Part shown: positions 6,239 to 36,122 of the stretch, piece by piece
Layout of the letters: the number at the start of each line of letters is the position of its first letter
Numbering within the stretch: the stretch's first letter is position 1
From: a virus
Taxonomy: Duplodnaviria; Heunggongvirae; Uroviricota; Caudoviricetes
DNA length: 41,518 bases
Virus record (IMG/VR): IMGVR_UViG_2802429248_000002
Reading direction: 5' to 3' (one strand)
Program-made: the position numbers and the translations under genes
Notes under the pieces: model-generated
Told to the model about the DNA's origin: nothing
The model's input: only the letters and a program-made list of their open reading frames with translations
Database searches by the model: none

Positions 6239-6253
6239 TACCTTTCAGGTGAT
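6239..6253. promoter_or_regulatory. Operator-like palindrome TTACCTTTCAGGTGA (imperfect member of the TTACC-N5-GGTAA family)
   Basis: Lies in the divergent region between the tailspike start (6133) and the LexA-box gene (6329). Confidence 0.45.
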
Positions 6254-6291
6254 TCGCAAAACGTGCTGGATAGCAAACAAATTATTTGATA

Positions 6292-6307
6292 CTGTATAAA
6301 TATACAG
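6292..6307. promoter_or_regulatory. LexA box (SOS box) CTGTATAAATATACAG
   Basis: Perfect CTGT-N8-ACAG with AT-rich spacer, flanked TA..TT (TACTGTATAAATATACAGTT, 6290-6309). Sits 22 bp upstream of ATG 6329 and overlaps a TTGATA -35-like hexamer (6286-6291). Confidence 0.75.
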
Positions 6308-6328
6308 TTATTGCATGGAGAAGATAAG

Positions 6329-6586
6329 ATGCAGCAGTATCACTATCCACTGGAAGACGGATTTACCGAAAGGATTCACACGCCGGGAGGCGTCAGGTCA
6401 CTGGTGGAGGGATCGCACTTGATGAAATTACTCCGGGATCTCGATAAGGATGGATTTAATGTCGATGGCCCACTTGCCGAACTGACTGCACTGATTAACT
6501 ACGTCACCAGCTCACAGATGTCTATGCGGGATCTGCAAACACATCTCGACTATTGTGCCGAACAATTACGAAAACAAACCCGGTAA
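6329..6586 (+). CDS. Small SOS-regulated protein, antirepressor C-terminal-domain-like (Tum/Ant-like candidate)
   Basis: ATG 6329 with GGAG 8 nt upstream; 85 aa. About half its residues match the C-terminal ~80 aa of the Bro-N protein at 7732-8418 (shared LxxDG.DV.G..AELT...........RD.QTH). Confidence 0.6.
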   Translation: MQQYHYPLEDGFTERIHTPGGVRSLVEGSHLMKLLRDLDKDGFNVDGPLAELTALINYVTSSQMSMRDLQTHLDYCAEQLRKQTR

Positions 6587-6608
6587 ATTTAAAGGCCGCA
6601 AGAGCGGC

Positions 6609-7337
6609 CTATCGTTTCGCTTTGTGCTCATCCCAGCACGTTTTGCACCATGCCATTAAGCCGTCCGCATTTTGATTATTAGGGTAAAAGCTGGTTCGTT
6701 TTCTGCGGACATTACAAATTGGGCACCACTTCATATGGCGTGTATTCTTTGGGCCATCGAGACACCTTGCACACCATTTAGTCAATCCATCTGGATTTTT
6801 TGACGATTTCCTGAATTTTTCATATGGAAGGTTTATTCTGCATCGCAAGCACTGCTTGCTACCACTTGAAACTCTGTTAGCTGATTCTTCTTTTGGCGGC
6901 GATACAGAAGGTATTCTTGCTGGCTCTGATATTGCCTGAGGTGCTTTTTTAGATGACTGAGACGATATGTCATCACCAGGGAATCTTCCATGATATGCCG
7001 GACGCGTTGACACTCCAGGTGGAATCTCAGCTGTAAACGGCTTTGGCTGAATCAGTTGCCTCTCTTTTGCTAACTCCTGCTGTTTATAATATGTCTGGAT
7101 TACCGCACTATCATAAGCAGGAGGTGCGGAAATATTAGGCGCATTACCTCCAGTTTTTTGAAACTGAGTAGAGGTGTGTTCTATCACCTGTGTACGATTA
7201 ATCGTTATCTCCCCATCTTCGGTCTTTATCGTTTTGTTATGATTAACGACCGTACGATCAGAGATCTTAGTCTTGTTCTGGTTGATAACGTAAATAATCA
7301 CCGCAACCACACCAACAACTATCCAGAAAACTTCCAT
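6609..7337 (-). CDS. Membrane-anchored protein with tandem Cys-rich (zinc-ribbon-like) C-terminal repeats, unknown function
   Basis: 242 aa. N-terminal TM helix (EVFWIVVGVVAVIIYVI), Pro/Ser-rich linker, then two repeats of CxxC..(F/Y)..DGL..WCxxC. Operator palindrome about 20 bp upstream of the start codon. Confidence 0.55.
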   Translation of the reverse strand: MEVFWIVVGVVAVIIYVINQNKTKISDRTVVNHNKTIKTEDGEITINRTQVIEHTSTQFQKTGGNAPNISAPPAYDSAVIQTYYKQQELAKERQLIQPKPFTAEIPPGVSTRPAYHGRFPGDDISSQSSKKAPQAISEPARIPSVSPPKEESANRVSSGSKQCLRCRINLPYEKFRKSSKNPDGLTKWCARCLDGPKNTRHMKWCPICNVRRKRTSFYPNNQNADGLMAWCKTCWDEHKAKR

Positions 7338-7357
7338 TGCTTTTCCTCACAATAACA

Positions 7358-7465
7358 TTACCTTAAAGGTAATATCTTGCTTTCAGGTGATCAAGCGTTA
7401 AACGCAATCAACCAAATACGGTTGATTTTAATGTTTCTTCGCGCTTATCATTACCTTTACGGTAA
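7358..7465. promoter_or_regulatory. Two operator palindromes (TTACCTTAAAGGTAA 7358-7372; TTACCTTTACGGTAA 7451-7465) in the divergent region between 6609-7337 and 7732-8418
   Basis: On the minus strand TTGATC-17 bp-TACCTT precedes the first palindrome, giving a promoter whose -10 is overlapped by the operator. A TTGATT (7422-7427)-17 bp-TTATCA (7445-7450) plus-strand promoter abuts the second palindrome. Confidence 0.5.
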
Positions 7466-7558
7466 ATTTACATAGCACTCCTCTTGTGCCATAGTAATCG
7501 GGCACTGGCAAAATCCAGTGCCGGGATTGGCGTCCCGGATTACTACAGAGGCACATAT

Positions 7559-7578
7559 GCCGCATAAGCGGTTTTTTT
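7559..7578 (+). terminator. Short intrinsic terminator/attenuator-like hairpin in the leader of the Bro-N gene
   Basis: Stem GCCGC (7559-7563), loop ATAA, GCGG, then seven T (7572-7578); preceded by an 8-bp stem hairpin GGCACTGG-CAAAAT-CCAGTGCC (7501-7522). Confidence 0.4.
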
Positions 7579-7731
7579 ATGTGTAAAGCGCACCTATTCT
7601 ATGGTGGGCTGTGTGGGGGCACCGAAAGGTGCGCCGGGTCCTTTGTAGCCGGTTACGCCAACCCTGCACAGTTCACCACCAACCGATTGGCGTCGGTAGT
7701 GGTGATTAACCTAACTACAAAGGTGATCACT

Positions 7732-34869: not shown

Positions 34870-34949
34870 GGTAAGCCATGTTATTAGTATTGGGATTACG
34901 GTTATTTTGTGCTGACACAAAAAAAAGATCAACCACATTTGGTTTTTTA

Positions 34950-34964
34950 TTACCTTTGAGGTAC
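34950..34964. promoter_or_regulatory. Operator palindrome TTACCTTTGAGGTAC upstream of the early-left genes
   Basis: Located between the Cro-like gene stop (35020) and the small zinc-finger gene start (34869). Confidence 0.4.
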
Positions 34965-35019
34965 GAATAGATATGAAAAGACCGCCGGATGGCGGTCTAC
35001 AGAGGGTTGTGGCTGGATA

Positions 35020-35250
35020 TCATGAGTAGAAGAAGTATGCCAGTTCTGCTTTTGAGCGCAGCCATTGTCTTGATTTACAGGCTTTAAAAAGCCCATCCAT
35101 CAATACCTTACCTGGCATTTTGCGCTTACCTGTTAAGTGAGTCTGGATATAGTGACTCGTCGTTCCGGCTTCCTGTGCGAAGGCTTCACGCTCATCCGGA
35201 GTAAGTGCAAGCCAGTGCTTTTTGAAATCGAAATGTCCGTTATCGCTCAT
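35020..35250 (-). CDS. Cro-like HTH DNA-binding protein (first gene of the leftward early operon)
   Basis: 76 aa; HTH-like segment FAQEAGTTSHYIQTHLTGKR; divergent from the repressor-like gene across an operator-rich 150-bp region. Confidence 0.45.
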   Translation of the reverse strand: MSDNGHFDFKKHWLALTPDEREAFAQEAGTTSHYIQTHLTGKRKMPGKVLMDGLFKACKSRQWLRSKAELAYFFYS

Positions 35251-35286
35251 AGCTATTGCCTGATATTTATTTCAGATAATAAATAT

Positions 35287-35349
35287 TCACCTATAAGGTA
35301 ACAAAAATCAAGGATAGTTACCCATGAGGTGCATTTACCTGTTGGGTAA
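35287..35349. promoter_or_regulatory. Immunity-region operator cluster: three sites (TCACCTATAAGGTAA 35287-35301; TTACCCATGAGGTGC 35318-35332; TTACCTGTTGGGTAA 35335-35349)
   Basis: Clustered palindromes in the divergent Cro-like/repressor intergenic region, analogous in layout to lambdoid tripartite operators. Confidence 0.55.
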
Positions 35350-35404
35350 TATTGCTTTAAATTGAATCATCTTCTGATTCAGATATGAGGCGATTTTCCA
35401 GAAA

Positions 35405-35989
35405 ATGAAAAGTATCCAGGACGTCCGCAGGCAAAATCTCAACGACTTGATCGACCGTGAATTCAATGGTGTTCAGACGCGGATGGCTGAAAAACTTGGA
35501 ACTCAGGCAAATCTGGTAAACCGCTGGGCTCTTGGCAAGAAGGTTATCGGCGACCAGGTTGCGCGAAAAATTGAAGCTGCCGCCAATAAACCCCGTAACT
35601 GGCTTGATATCGATCGCTCGCTTTCTCAGGAAGGTTTTCAGCCTGTCGGCCCGAGTGATATAGGTCAGCTGGCTGCTCACAACCTGGAACGCTGGATGAG
35701 CGAAAGCCGCGACCTTTCAACGCAGGGAAAACTACACCGCGCATCCGGCGTCGCCCAGGTGACAATCAGCCGCCTGTTAAACAATGAGGTCAGCGTTTCC
35801 ATTTCCACCCTGGAGAATGTTGCATCCGCATTCGGGCGTCATGGCTATGAATTACTGATTCACCCGCACGACCCTGCGACTATCAACTATGACCGCTCGC
35901 GCTACGCATTGTTACCCGAAACCGAGAAAGCAAAGATCGAAAGTTACATTGAATTTGTCATCAACCAGAACGAAAAAAACAAACAATAA
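35405..35989 (+). CDS. XRE-family repressor-like protein with two HTH motifs and no S24 autocleavage domain (putative immunity repressor)
   Basis: 194 aa; HTH 1 GVQTRMAEKLGTQANLVNRW, HTH 2 ASGVAQVTISRLLNNEVSVS; no GDSM/Ser-Lys peptidase signature; flanked by operator clusters on both sides; terminator immediately downstream. Confidence 0.55.
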   Translation: MKSIQDVRRQNLNDLIDREFNGVQTRMAEKLGTQANLVNRWALGKKVIGDQVARKIEAAANKPRNWLDIDRSLSQEGFQPVGPSDIGQLAAHNLERWMSESRDLSTQGKLHRASGVAQVTISRLLNNEVSVSISTLENVASAFGRHGYELLIHPHDPATINYDRSRYALLPETEKAKIESYIEFVINQNEKNKQ

Positions 35990-36010
35990 AATCATATTTT
36001 TCAGTAAGTA

Positions 36011-36034
36011 AGCCGCCTTCTGGCGGCTTTTTTA
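36011..36034 (+). terminator. Intrinsic terminator after the repressor-like gene
   Basis: AGCCGCC-TTCT-GGCGGCT hairpin followed by TTTTTTATT. Confidence 0.65.
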
Positions 36035-36046
36035 TTGCCTACTCGA

Positions 36047-36122
36047 TTACCTAACGGGTAATTTTTTAACTCATATCTATTGACATCAAACCAGATACGC
36101 ATAATTATTACCTCAACGGTAA
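36047..36122 (+). promoter_or_regulatory. Early-right promoter region: operator TTACCTAACGGGTAA (36047-36061), -35 TTGACA (36080-36085), AT-rich -10 (about 36102-36108), operator TTACCTCAACGGTAA (36108-36122)
   Basis: Consensus -35 with 16-17 bp spacer to TAATTA/AATTAT; second palindrome begins at the -10 and covers the predicted start site; first plus-strand ORF begins at 36142. Confidence 0.55.

What the first reader, a model, noticed from the sequence alone, without database searches (positions are those of the whole stretch)
6239..36122. Dispersed family of at least 13 TTACC-N5-GGTAA palindromes overlapping promoters and ribosome-binding sites across the prophage
Near-identical 15-bp palindromes occur at 6239, 7358, 7451, 24975, 25592, 32942, 33004, 34950, 35287, 35318, 35335, 36047 and 36108. 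All are intergenic. Several sit right at a -10 hexamer (24975, 36108, 7358 on the minus strand) or 4 nt before a start codon (25592, 32942). Three cluster between the Cro-like and repressor-like genes and two flank the early-right promoter. This is the signature of one dimeric DNA-binding protein controlling early, accessory and cargo promoters directly, reminiscent of multi-operator repressor networks such as P1 C1 or mycobacteriophage stoperators. The ordinary lambdoid pattern is only two operator regions. Sites at 6170-6253, 24905-24989 and 32942-33018 also share a larger ~80-bp module with an upstream CCACATATG-like element.
Basis: seen in the sequence. Interest (0 to 1): 0.75.

Follow-up and report, generated by a model that had tools for sequence, protein, structure and literature searches.

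The report
Prophage repressor operators scattered genome-wide
The scattered TTACC-N5-GGTAA palindromes are real and are almost certainly the binding sites of this phiV10/epsilon15-type prophage's own repressor, but the same dispersed site family is already annotated as repressor-binding sites in the public epsilon15 genome record, so this is a confirmation, not a discovery.

Summary
TTACC-N5-GGTAA occurs 9 times exactly (0.01 expected) and 15 times with at most one mismatch (0.82 expected). It is absent from 150 kb of host chromosome. A weight matrix trained only on Salmonella-phage sites finds 13 strong sites in the window.

The window is a phiV10/epsilon15-like (Uetakevirus) prophage. Its repressor is 100% identical to phiV10 p40 and homologous to SPC32H Rep (PDB 5D50, E 4e-42).

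The motif is the top palindrome in the four genomes screened de novo. It gives 13-18 sites at up to one mismatch in each of five relatives from E. coli, Salmonella, Enterobacter and Klebsiella. Positions are syntenic: the cro/rep region, the early-left promoter, p42, p45/RuvC, terS, p06/portal, tail fibre/ant and int.

The public epsilon15 record already marks seven such sites as 'protein_bind: repressor'. The one-regulator, many-operators interpretation is therefore supported but known. No binding was tested here.

Corrections:
- By homology the repressor works as a tetramer, not a simple dimer.
- Site 25592 overlaps a -10 hexamer, not a ribosome-binding site.
- Site 35318 is weak.

The shared AACCACAT element in the ~80-bp module is real and conserved, but unexplained.

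The parts
35405..35989 (+). Prophage repressor (Rep), 194 aa. By homology it has an N-terminal DNA-binding domain, a middle HTH_3-like dimerisation domain and a C-terminal tetramerisation/Ant-binding domain.
   Evidence: 100% identical to phiV10 p40. Matches SPC32H Rep, PDB 5D50, at E 4e-42 over residues 1-190. Pfam HTH_3. Domain roles are from PMC9986798.
35020..35250 (-). Cro-like protein, 76 aa, transcribed divergently from rep. It is the first gene of the long replication/late transcription direction.
   Evidence: phiV10 p41 homolog. PHROG 35 'transcriptional repressor', E 9e-13. 59-84% identical across the genus, with an invariant AGTTSHYIQ.HLT segment.
35287..35301 (.). Operator (1 mismatch) overlapping the -35 and spacer of the cro-like promoter.
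   Evidence: Promoter TTGTTA-17-TATTAT at 35304-35276 on the minus strand. PWM score 14.4 bits.
35318..35332 (.). Weak operator (2 mismatches), 17 bp from the strong site at 35335.
   Evidence: Below the PWM threshold. The same 17-bp adjacent pair is seen in epsilon15, SPC32H and BUCT711.
35335..35349 (.). Operator (exact) next to the repressor gene. Its right arm runs into a TAATAT -10-like hexamer at 35346-35351.
   Evidence: PWM score 21.4 bits. The -10 reading is by eye only.
36047..36061 (.). Operator (exact), about 19 bp upstream of the -35 of the early-left (recET side) promoter.
36108..36122 (.). Operator (exact) abutting the -10 and covering the start-site region of the early-left promoter. 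It lies 61 bp from the 36047 site.
   Evidence: Promoter TTGACA-17-AATTAT at 36080-36108. The pair spacing of 61-63 bp is kept in all six genomes.
34950..34964 (.). Operator (1 mismatch) just downstream of the cro terminator and upstream of p42.
   Evidence: Terminator at 34998-34979 on the minus strand. Syntenic site in phiV10 at 33112 and Tyrion at 35365.
33004..33018 (.). Operator (exact) filling the spacer of the p45 (DUF1064) promoter.
   Evidence: Promoter TCGATA-16-TAAAAT at 33025-32998 on the minus strand. Conserved in six genomes.
32942..32956 (.). Operator (exact) overlapping the Shine-Dalgarno region of p45 and ending 3 nt before its start codon. It lies 62 bp from the 33004 site.
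   Evidence: The equivalent distal site in epsilon15 is annotated as repressor-binding (35906-35922).
28530..28562 (.). Pair of operators, 28548 (exact) and 28530 (1 mismatch, weak), lying between a terminator and the terS start.
   Evidence: Terminator at 28599-28582. Syntenic with the epsilon15 site at 12-27, annotated 'repressor'. terS carries Pfam Terminase_2 when translated from 28527.
25592..25606 (.). Operator (1 mismatch) overlapping the spacer and the TATAAT -10 of the promoter of an accessory gene (25635-26429, unknown function).
   Evidence: Promoter ATGACC-17-TATAAT at 25581-25609. The true start at 25635 is supported by the PHROG 4780 alignment and the BUCT711 homolog. The sequence resembles the int-proximal operator of phiV10, TTACCTTAAAGGTATACT.
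24975..24989 (.). Operator (exact) upstream of p06/portal. It overlaps the -10-like TACCTT of a conserved antisense promoter pointing towards tRNA-Arg.
   Evidence: TTGAC(A/C)-17-TACCTT is conserved in six genomes. The epsilon15 equivalent at 2931-2947 is annotated as repressor-binding.
7451..7465 (.). Operator (exact) at the start-site region of the promoter that drives isrK, C4 antisense RNA and the Bro-N antirepressor.
   Evidence: Promoter TTGATT-18-TATCAT at 7422-7451. Rfam isrK at 7502-7578 and C4 at 7597-7683. Bro-N/Ant assignment.
7358..7372 (.). Operator (exact), 20 bp upstream of an accessory 242-aa gene (6609-7337, minus strand) that is absent from phiV10.
   Evidence: Highest PWM score in the window, 26.2 bits.
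6238..6252 (.). Operator (1 mismatch) in the divergent region between the tail-fibre gene and ant.
   Evidence: The epsilon15 equivalent at 19895-19911 is annotated as repressor-binding.
6329..6586 (+). Small antirepressor (Ant) homolog.
   Evidence: Corresponds to phiV10 p24, epsilon15 gp19 and the SPC32H ant gene. PHROG 450.
6292..6307 (.). LexA box, CTGTATAAATATACAG, just upstream of ant.
   Evidence: Conserved in phiV10, epsilon15 and SPC32H. LexA control of an antirepressor that inactivates the repressor is attributed to Kim & Ryu 2013 among others in PMC7380047.
6198..6205 (+). AACCACAT element (ATGTGGTT on the gene strand). The other copies are at 24923-24930, 32962-32969 and 34931-34938.
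   Evidence: All four copies in the window lie beside operators. Conserved across the genus. Function unknown.

Best explanation
The palindromes are the operators of the prophage's own immunity repressor, Rep (35405-35989), in a phiV10/epsilon15-type (Uetakevirus) prophage.

Rep recognises ATTACC-N5-GGTAAT through its N-terminal helix-turn-helix domain. By homology to SPC32H Rep it acts as a tetramer. In the lysogen it would occupy about 13 strong sites, plus two weak neighbouring sites, in nine control regions.

The sites would block:
- the cro-like/replication promoter
- the early-left recET promoter
- the internal promoters for p42 and p45
- the terS entry into the late genes
- the p06/portal region and its antisense tRNA promoter
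- the tail-fibre/ant region
- the C4-RNA/Bro-N antirepressor operon
- two accessory genes

Most sites overlap a -35, spacer, -10 or start site, which fits promoter occlusion. Two promoters carry operator pairs 61-63 bp apart, a spacing that would suit bridging by one tetramer. The terS pair follows a terminator with no visible promoter and probably acts as a roadblock.

Induction would not go through Rep cleavage. A LexA-controlled small antirepressor (Ant, 6329-6586) disassembles the Rep tetramer.

Shown here: enrichment, positions, conservation, homology and the prior annotation. Inferred: actual binding, the oligomeric state on these sites, looping and roadblock action.
For: Enrichment and specificity:
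- 9 exact sites against 0.01 expected, and 15 against 0.82 at up to one mismatch.
- No exact match in 150 kb of host DNA.
- A matrix trained on Salmonella phages finds 13 window sites at 13.5 bits or more, against a host maximum of 11.4.

Arrangement:
- Three sites between the divergent cro-like and rep genes, and two around the early-left promoter.
- Overlaps with predicted promoters.

Conservation:
- TTACC-N5-GGTAA is the top 5-N-5 palindrome in the window, phiV10, epsilon15 and SPC32H.
- Tyrion and BUCT711 have 15 and 13 sites against about 0.5 expected.
- Positions are syntenic and the 61-63-bp and 17-18-bp pairings are kept.

Prior annotation: the epsilon15 record marks seven such sites as 'protein_bind, repressor, lysogeny'.

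The protein:
- Rep is 100% identical to phiV10 p40 and homologous to SPC32H Rep, PDB 5D50.
- The NLVNRW segment of the N-terminal domain is invariant across Reps that are 43-78% identical.
- SPC32H Rep binds palindromic sites as a tetramer and Ant breaks the tetramer (PMC9638917; PMC9986798).
- In ZX5, overexpressing the identical repressor cut endolysin and holin transcripts by more than 99.9% (PMC9782041).
- The LexA box upstream of ant is conserved.
Against:
- The epsilon15 'repressor' features may themselves be bioinformatic predictions.
- The Cro-like protein is at least as conserved as Rep, so conservation alone does not tell the two apart.
- Several promoter assignments are weak consensus matches. 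The scans found no more promoters than shuffles do.
- No promoter was found at 28530/28548, 34950 or on the late-gene strand at 24975.
- The ZX5 data show repression of lysis genes but not that it is direct.
Confidence: 0.85

Rival explanations
1. The sites are bound mainly, or also, by the Cro-like 76-aa protein (35020-35250). The dispersed copies would then serve to turn promoters down during lytic growth, not to silence them in lysogeny.
For: - The Cro-like protein is 59-84% identical across the genus, with an invariant putative recognition segment.
- It matches PHROG 35 'transcriptional repressor'.
- From established knowledge of lambdoid phages, CI and Cro share operators.
Against: - The epsilon15 record assigns the sites to the repressor.
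- SPC32H Rep is reported to bind palindromic sites.
- Rep overexpression alone silences lysis genes in ZX5.
- Shared use of the sites would add to the main explanation, not replace it.
Confidence: 0.1
2. The palindromes act at the RNA level, as small hairpins that hide ribosome-binding sites or are bound by a translational repressor.
For: - Sites 32942 and 28530 overlap Shine-Dalgarno or start-codon regions.
- Each site can form a 5-7-bp hairpin.
Against: - The hairpins are weak, at -3.5 to -5.5 kcal/mol, with only modest z-scores.
- The loop sequence varies freely while the arms are fixed. This is typical of a protein-DNA half-site pair, not a structure kept by covariation.
- Site 36047 lies upstream of a -35, and sites 33004 and 35287 lie within promoter spacers, so they are not expected to be transcribed from those promoters.
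- 25592 overlaps a -10, not a real ribosome-binding site.
Confidence: 0.02
3. The sites bind a host transcription factor, or are a chance or compositional repeat of enterobacterial DNA.
For: The motif is conserved in phages of four host genera, which a conserved host factor could also explain.
Against: - No exact copy in 150 kb of host chromosome, against 9 in 41.5 kb of prophage.
- Shuffles expect 0.01.
- The sites cluster in the immunity region in a classical three-operator layout.
Confidence: 0.02
4. The conserved operator/promoter cassettes serve mainly as short homology patches for exchanging accessory gene modules between related phages. This reading does not exclude operator function.
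For: Homology to phiV10 breaks at 7443, which is 8 bp from operator 7451, and at 25575, just before the operator/promoter at 25581-25609. Both accessory inserts carry their own operator.
Against: - Only two junctions were examined.
- 15-bp sites are short for homologous recombination.
- Most sites sit in core regions with no mosaic junction.
Confidence: 0.05

Closest known systems
Repressor-binding sites annotated in Salmonella phage epsilon15 (NC_004775.2; genome paper Kropinski et al. 2007, Virology 369:234, not readable here)
   Same: - The same ATTACC-N5-GGTAAT palindrome.
- The same dispersed layout. Annotated sites lie upstream of terS, upstream of gp3 (the p06 homolog), between gp19 (ant) and the tail fibre, around the early-left promoter and upstream of the RuvC/p45 position.
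- The same genus and gene order.
   Different: - Only 7 sites are annotated in epsilon15, whereas 11 exact sites are present there. The window has 13 strong and 2 weak sites.
- The window's Rep is only about 43% identical to epsilon15 Rep.
- The window adds operators at two accessory genes and at a C4/Bro-N antirepressor operon.
Salmonella phage SPC32H Rep-Ant switch (PDB 5D50/5D4Z; Kim & Ryu 2013, Kim et al. 2016, as described in PMC9638917, PMC9986798 and PMC7380047)
   Same: - Homologous repressor (E 4e-42).
- Homologous small Ant gene in the same position.
- Conserved LexA box upstream of ant.
- The same operator motif and positions in the SPC32H genome.
   Different: - The tetramer and Ant-disassembly mechanism was shown for SPC32H, not for this Rep.
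- This prophage also carries a second, larger Bro-N protein whose C-terminal part is homologous to Ant.
Phage P1 C1 repressor with its many dispersed operators, including the operator controlling the c4-icd-ant (immI) operon (from my own knowledge of P1)
   Same: - One repressor with many operators scattered over the genome.
- One operator (7451) sits at the promoter of a C4 antisense RNA plus antirepressor module (Rfam C4, 79.5 bits).
   Different: - P1 operators are asymmetric 17-mers, whereas these are palindromes.
- Rep is an HTH_3-type protein.
- Homology to C1 was not tested, and none is suggested by the Pfam hits.
Stoperators of cluster A mycobacteriophages (from my own knowledge)
   Same: - Many copies of one repressor site spread through the genome, in short intergenic gaps.
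- The terS pair lies inside a transcribed path after a terminator with no promoter, so it would have to act on elongating polymerase.
   Different: - Stoperators are asymmetric and oriented with transcription, and number about 20-30 or more.
- Here the sites are symmetric, about 13-15 in number, and most overlap promoter-like sequences.
Lambda CI/Cro with OL and OR
   Same: - Divergent rep and cro-like genes with three operators between them.
- Further operators at the other early promoter.
- Operator pairs that could support cooperative binding or looping.
   Different: - There are seven more control regions beyond the two early ones.
- Induction is by an antirepressor and not by RecA-stimulated cleavage.
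- Repressor architecture differs.

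Membership tests
Uetakevirus (epsilon15/phiV10/SPC32H) Rep operator regulon | Encodes a Rep-family repressor | tested here: met
   100% identical to phiV10 p40. E 4e-42 to SPC32H Rep, PDB 5D50. Aligns end to end with Tyrion, BUCT711, epsilon15 and SPC32H Reps.
Uetakevirus (epsilon15/phiV10/SPC32H) Rep operator regulon | Operator sequence ATTACC-N5-GGTAAT, as annotated in epsilon15 | tested here: met
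   The annotated epsilon15 sites have this sequence. A PWM trained on epsilon15 and SPC32H scores 13 window sites at 13.5-26 bits.
Uetakevirus (epsilon15/phiV10/SPC32H) Rep operator regulon | Sites at the same genomic positions as in relatives | tested here: met
   Sites at terS, p06, tail fibre/ant, the early-left promoter pair, the cro/rep cluster and the p45/RuvC pair are found in all genomes compared.
Uetakevirus (epsilon15/phiV10/SPC32H) Rep operator regulon | LexA-controlled small antirepressor | tested here: met
   The Ant homolog is at 6329-6586. A conserved LexA box lies at 6292-6307.
Uetakevirus (epsilon15/phiV10/SPC32H) Rep operator regulon | Rep physically binds the sites and represses the adjacent promoters | not testable with these tools
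   Only indirect support is available: the SPC32H literature and ZX5 Rep overexpression.
P1 C1-type multi-operator network | Asymmetric 17-bp operators bound by a C1-family protein | tested here: not met
   The sites are symmetric palindromes. Rep hits HTH_3/HTH_26 in Pfam. Direct comparison with C1 was not done.
P1 C1-type multi-operator network | An operator controls a c4 antisense RNA plus antirepressor operon | tested here: met
   Operator 7451 sits at a predicted promoter. It is followed by isrK and C4 RNAs and a Bro-N antirepressor.
Cluster A mycobacteriophage stoperators | Asymmetric sites oriented with transcription, mostly away from promoters | tested here: not met
   The sites are palindromic, and most overlap promoter-like hexamers. 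Only the terS pair, and perhaps 34950, lack a promoter.
Lambda-type immunity region | Operators confined to two early control regions, with a RecA-cleavable repressor | tested here: not met
   Operators are present in nine regions. The induction route is LexA-controlled Ant, by homology. Rep cleavage itself was not tested.

The most novel reading that the evidence does not exclude
The operators may form a two-tier silencing system not yet described for this genus.

1. At two promoters, a fixed 61-63-bp operator pair (about six helical turns) would be bridged by one Rep tetramer. The tetramer's two DNA-binding pairs lie about 100 Å apart.
2. Promoter-less operators placed just after terminators (terS, perhaps p42) would act as roadblocks.
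3. The half-site and the Rep recognition segment are invariant across E. coli, Salmonella, Enterobacter and Klebsiella phages, although the Reps are only 43-78% identical overall. All Uetakeviruses might therefore be mutually immune at the operator level, with specificity set instead by Rep-Ant pairing.

The conserved CATATnnGGTT/AACCACAT element next to operators could be the site of a second, unknown regulator.
Probability: 0.25. Interest if true: 0.45.

Novelty: already known. Interest (0 to 1): 0.22.

Why it matters
This prophage type is common. Its immunity region is found in 566 of 5,426 complete E. coli genomes, and phiV10-type phages are used as O157 typing and reporter phages.

A correct operator map shows which genes are silent in the lysogen. 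That includes the accessory genes at 6609-7337 and 25635-26429, which carry their own operators and are therefore probably lytic-phase functions, not lysogenic-conversion genes.

The map also gives a ready set of sites for testing how the tetrameric Rep described for SPC32H engages DNA. A 2023 paper notes that this mechanism 'has not been extensively characterized'.

The basic discovery, one repressor with dispersed operators in epsilon15-like phages, is already in the public record.

Tried and rejected
- **Primary papers.** I tried to read Kropinski 2007 (PMC2698709), Kim & Ryu 2013 (PMC3807360) and Kim 2016 (PMC4983836). None is held. A text search for a consensus string I half-remembered (ATTACCWDWWNGGTAAT) found nothing, so I do not cite it. 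One literature search returned only irrelevant papers.
- **Mini-ORF idea for the AACCACAT element.** On the gene strand it reads ATG TGG TTn and ends at the TAA of GGTAA, giving MWFFR*, MWLNW* and MWFLIT*. I rejected this because the ATG is not conserved at the tail-fibre locus in epsilon15, SPC32H and Tyrion.
- **AACCACAT as a degenerate operator half, a sigma-70 -10 or a sigma-54 element.** None fits by eye.
- **RNA hairpin reading of the palindromes.** The energies are weak.
- **Site 3009.** It lies inside a gene and scores below the PWM threshold, so I treat it as chance.
- **Second LexA-like box at 6219-6234.** It is not conserved in phiV10, epsilon15 or SPC32H, so it is possibly chance.
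- **Promoter scans.** They are weak evidence overall, because counts do not exceed shuffles.
- **Python census.** Loci L004, L005, L007 and L008 never appeared in the Python workspace. I analysed those genomes with the DNA search and the alignment tools only.

Full report

Yes. The exact pattern TTACCNNNNNGGTAA occurs 9 times in the 41.5-kb window, against 0.01 expected from dinucleotide-preserving shuffles. With one mismatch allowed there are 15 matches against 0.82 expected, and no shuffle reached that count.

The details need small corrections:
- The site given as 6239 starts at 6238.
- Four listed sites have one mismatch (6238, 25592, 34950, 35287), and 35318 has two.
- A one-mismatch hit at 3009 lies inside a lysis-cassette gene and is probably chance.

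Three 50-kb stretches of the chromosome of E. coli PK6, which carries a 99.8%-identical copy of the immunity region, contain no exact match. A weight matrix built only from Salmonella-phage sites (epsilon15 and SPC32H) scores 13 window sites between 13.5 and 26 bits. The best hit in 50 kb of host DNA scores 11.4 bits, and shuffled windows give about one hit at 8 bits or more.

**2. What is the element?**

The window is almost entirely a phiV10/epsilon15-like podovirus prophage (genus Uetakevirus), in reverse orientation relative to the phiV10 record. The integrase gene is at the right end and the lysis genes are at 1350-3156.

The repressor-like gene at 35405-35989 encodes a protein 100% identical to phiV10 p40. 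It is clearly homologous to the repressor Rep of Salmonella phage SPC32H, whose structure is solved (PDB 5D50, E 4e-42 over residues 1-190). The same immunity region is found in 566 of 5,426 complete E. coli genomes.

**3. Is the motif already known?**

Yes, at least at the level of genome annotation. Their positions are:
- upstream of terS
- upstream of gp3
- between gp19 and the tail-fibre gene
- three around the early-left promoter
- upstream of the RuvC gene

Their sequences are ATTACC-N5-GGTAAT. The phiV10 record itself has no such features. The paper on the near-identical phage ZX5 does not map operators, but it shows that overexpressing the identical repressor cuts endolysin and holin transcripts by more than 99.9% (PMC9782041).

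I could not read the epsilon15 genome paper or the two primary SPC32H papers, which are not held. I therefore cannot say whether any dispersed site has been tested biochemically.

**4. Comparative evidence.**

An unbiased count of all 5-N(0-8)-5 palindromes puts TTACC-N5-GGTAA first in the window, phiV10, epsilon15 and SPC32H. Enterobacter phage Tyrion has 15 sites and Klebsiella phage BUCT711 has 13 at up to one mismatch, against about 0.5 expected in each.

The positions are syntenic: terS, p06/portal, tail fibre/ant, the early-left promoter, the cro/rep intergenic cluster, downstream of cro, p45/RuvC and upstream of int. The int position lies just outside this window.

Spacing is conserved too:
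- Pairs 61-63 bp apart at the early-left promoter and at p45/RuvC, in all six genomes.
- Adjacent pairs 17-18 bp apart at terS and in the cro/rep region.

The Reps of these phages are only 43-78% identical to the window's Rep. Even so, the N-terminal domain segment NLVNRW is invariant, which fits an unchanged half-site. The Cro-like protein is even more conserved, at 59-84%. Conservation alone therefore cannot say which of the two proteins, or whether both, use the sites.

**5. Position of each site.**

| Site(s) | Position |
|---|---|
| 36047, 36108 | Early-left promoter TTGACA-17-AATTAT (36080-36108). 36108 abuts the -10; 36047 lies 19 bp upstream of the -35. |
| 35287 | Overlaps the -35 of the cro-like promoter TTGTTA-17-TATTAT. 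|
| 33004 | Fills the spacer of TCGATA-16-TAAAAT. |
| 32942 | 62 bp downstream of 33004. Covers the Shine-Dalgarno region of p45 and ends 3 nt before its ATG. |
| 7451 | Begins at the last base of the -10 of TTGATT-18-TATCAT. |
| 25592 | Overlaps the spacer and the TATAAT of ATGACC-17-TATAAT. |
| 24975 | Overlaps the -10-like TACCTT of an antisense promoter, TTGAC(A/C)-17-TACCTT, conserved in six genomes and pointing towards a tRNA-Arg gene. |
| 28548, 28530 | Lie between a terminator (28599-28582) and the likely terS start (~28527), with no recognisable promoter. |

For 25592, the ATG four bases further on is probably not the start codon. The PHROG profile and the Klebsiella-phage homolog both align from the next ATG at 25635. 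The homolog's upstream region has the same operator-over-minus-10 layout in degenerate form.

For the terS pair, the absence of a promoter suggests a block to read-through, not promoter occlusion.

These promoter calls are consensus matches only. The scans found no more promoter-like sites than shuffles do, so they show geometry, not function.

**6. Mechanism.**

The best-supported reading is that Rep binds all these sites in the lysogen and silences nearly every transcription unit directly.

According to papers that describe the SPC32H work:
- Rep has an N-terminal DNA-binding domain, a middle dimerisation domain and a C-terminal tetramerisation domain.
- It binds palindromic sites as a tetramer, in which each DNA-binding pair is formed by subunits of different dimers.
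- The tetrameric antirepressor Ant splits it into dimers (PMC9638917; PMC9986798).
- SOS induction works through LexA-controlled Ant synthesis and not through repressor cleavage (PMC7380047).

The window has the Ant homolog at 6329-6586, with a LexA box (CTGTATAAATATACAG, 6292-6307) that is conserved in phiV10, epsilon15 and SPC32H.

The conserved 61-63-bp operator pairs would suit bridging by one tetramer, but that is inference.

**7. The larger module.**

The octamer AACCACAT (ATGTGGTT on the gene strand) occurs four times in the window, always 8-45 bp from an operator. At the p06 locus, a 40-bp block containing it is invariant across phages of four host genera (ATATGTGGTTAAATTGGTAATAATTTAATTGCGTACGGAG). 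Related forms (CATATnnGGTT) are conserved at the tail-fibre and p45 loci.

A mini-ORF reading fails, because the ATG is not conserved. I could not assign a function. A binding site for a second regulator, or part of activator-dependent late promoters, are possibilities only.

**8. Rivals.**

- RNA hairpins are weak, at -3.5 to -5.5 kcal/mol. Several sites lie upstream of, or inside, promoters.
- A host-factor or compositional origin is contradicted by the host control.
- A role as recombination linkers gets limited support. Two mosaic junctions with phiV10 fall next to operators, at 7443 and 25575. That role would be additional, not alternative.
- Use of the sites by the Cro-like protein remains open.

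**9. Comparison with known systems.**

The find belongs to the epsilon15/SPC32H Rep operator family. The repressor, motif, positions and Ant/LexA features were all tested and met. Only physical binding is untestable here.

It works like the P1 C1 network, in having one repressor with many scattered operators. One operator even sits in front of a C4 antisense RNA and antirepressor operon (Rfam C4 79.5 bits and isrK 76.8 bits; Bro-N antirepressor). It is not a member of that family, because the sites are palindromes and Rep is an HTH_3-type protein.

It differs from mycobacteriophage stoperators in symmetry and in mostly overlapping promoters. It differs from lambda in having nine control regions and antirepressor-based induction.

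**10. Verdict.**

The motif, its dispersal and its assignment to the repressor are already in a public record for a phage of the same genus, and this prophage's repressor is identical to that of a sequenced phage.

What this work adds:
- A fuller site map, with 13 strong and 2 weak sites.
- Corrected start codons for terS and the 25635 gene.
- The conserved pair spacings.
- Operators attached to two accessory genes.
- The unexplained AACCACAT element.

Noticed in passing
window 7502-7683 (+) and 7732-8418 (+): Rfam finds isrK (7502-7578, 76.8 bits) and C4 antisense RNA (7597-7683, 79.5 bits) directly upstream of a Bro-N antirepressor gene. This is a P1/P7 immI-like module placed behind operator 7451.
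   Followed up: partly
window 7732-8418 (+) versus 6329-6586 (+): The C-terminal part of the Bro-N protein (residues ~145-226) belongs to the same PHROG (450) as the small LexA-controlled Ant, and aligns to it at 42% identity. The prophage therefore carries two proteins with an Ant-type domain under different controls.
   Followed up: partly
window 25312-25388 (+): A tRNA-Arg (anticodon TCT) lies antisense to the late genes and overlaps the ORF annotated as hypothetical protein p04 in phiV10, so p04 may not be a real gene. SPC32H has a tRNA-Arg at the same place.
   Followed up: partly
window 6219-6234: A second CTGT-N8-ACAG LexA-like box abuts operator 6238. It is absent from phiV10, epsilon15 and SPC32H, so it may be chance or a recent gain.
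   Followed up: partly
window 6198, 24923, 32962, 34931 (+): The octamer AACCACAT occurs four times, always beside an operator. It is followed 5 nt later, on the gene strand, by a GGTAAT half-site or a full operator at three of the four copies (not at 34931). It is conserved across the genus and its function is unknown.
   Followed up: partly
window 8462-8471 and 28642-28651; L002 2143, 19518, 39613: A second palindrome, TGACATGTCA (extended to GTGACATGTCAC at 28641-28652), lies close to the stop codon of the last gene of several operons and, where terminators are annotated, just before them. It is enriched in epsilon15, with 6 sites at up to one mismatch against 1.5 expected.
   Followed up: no
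window 28520-28660 (-): The regulator-like gene p55 is followed by a promoter-like site (28652-28623), a strong terminator (28599-28582) and then terS. This layout recalls lambda Q-PR'-tR', so late genes might depend on antitermination. p55 has no Pfam hit.
   Followed up: no
window 27898-28608 (-); L001 41-715: The terS start annotated in phiV10, and the longest ORF here, begin upstream of a terminator and of the operators. The likely true start is the ATG ATG at about 28530-28525, matching the start annotated in epsilon15.
   Followed up: partly
window 6609-7337 (-) and 25635-26429 (+): Two accessory genes are absent from phiV10: a 242-aa protein with a C-terminal zinc-finger/endonuclease VII-like or Lar-like region, and a 264-aa coiled-coil protein. 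Each carries its own operator. Homology to phiV10 breaks at 7443 and 25575, next to operators.
   Followed up: partly
Rep alignment A1; loci L002-L005: Operator half-sites are the same in phages of E. coli, Salmonella, Enterobacter and Klebsiella, although their Reps are only 43-78% identical to the window's Rep. This raises the question of whether these phages are cross-immune.
   Followed up: no
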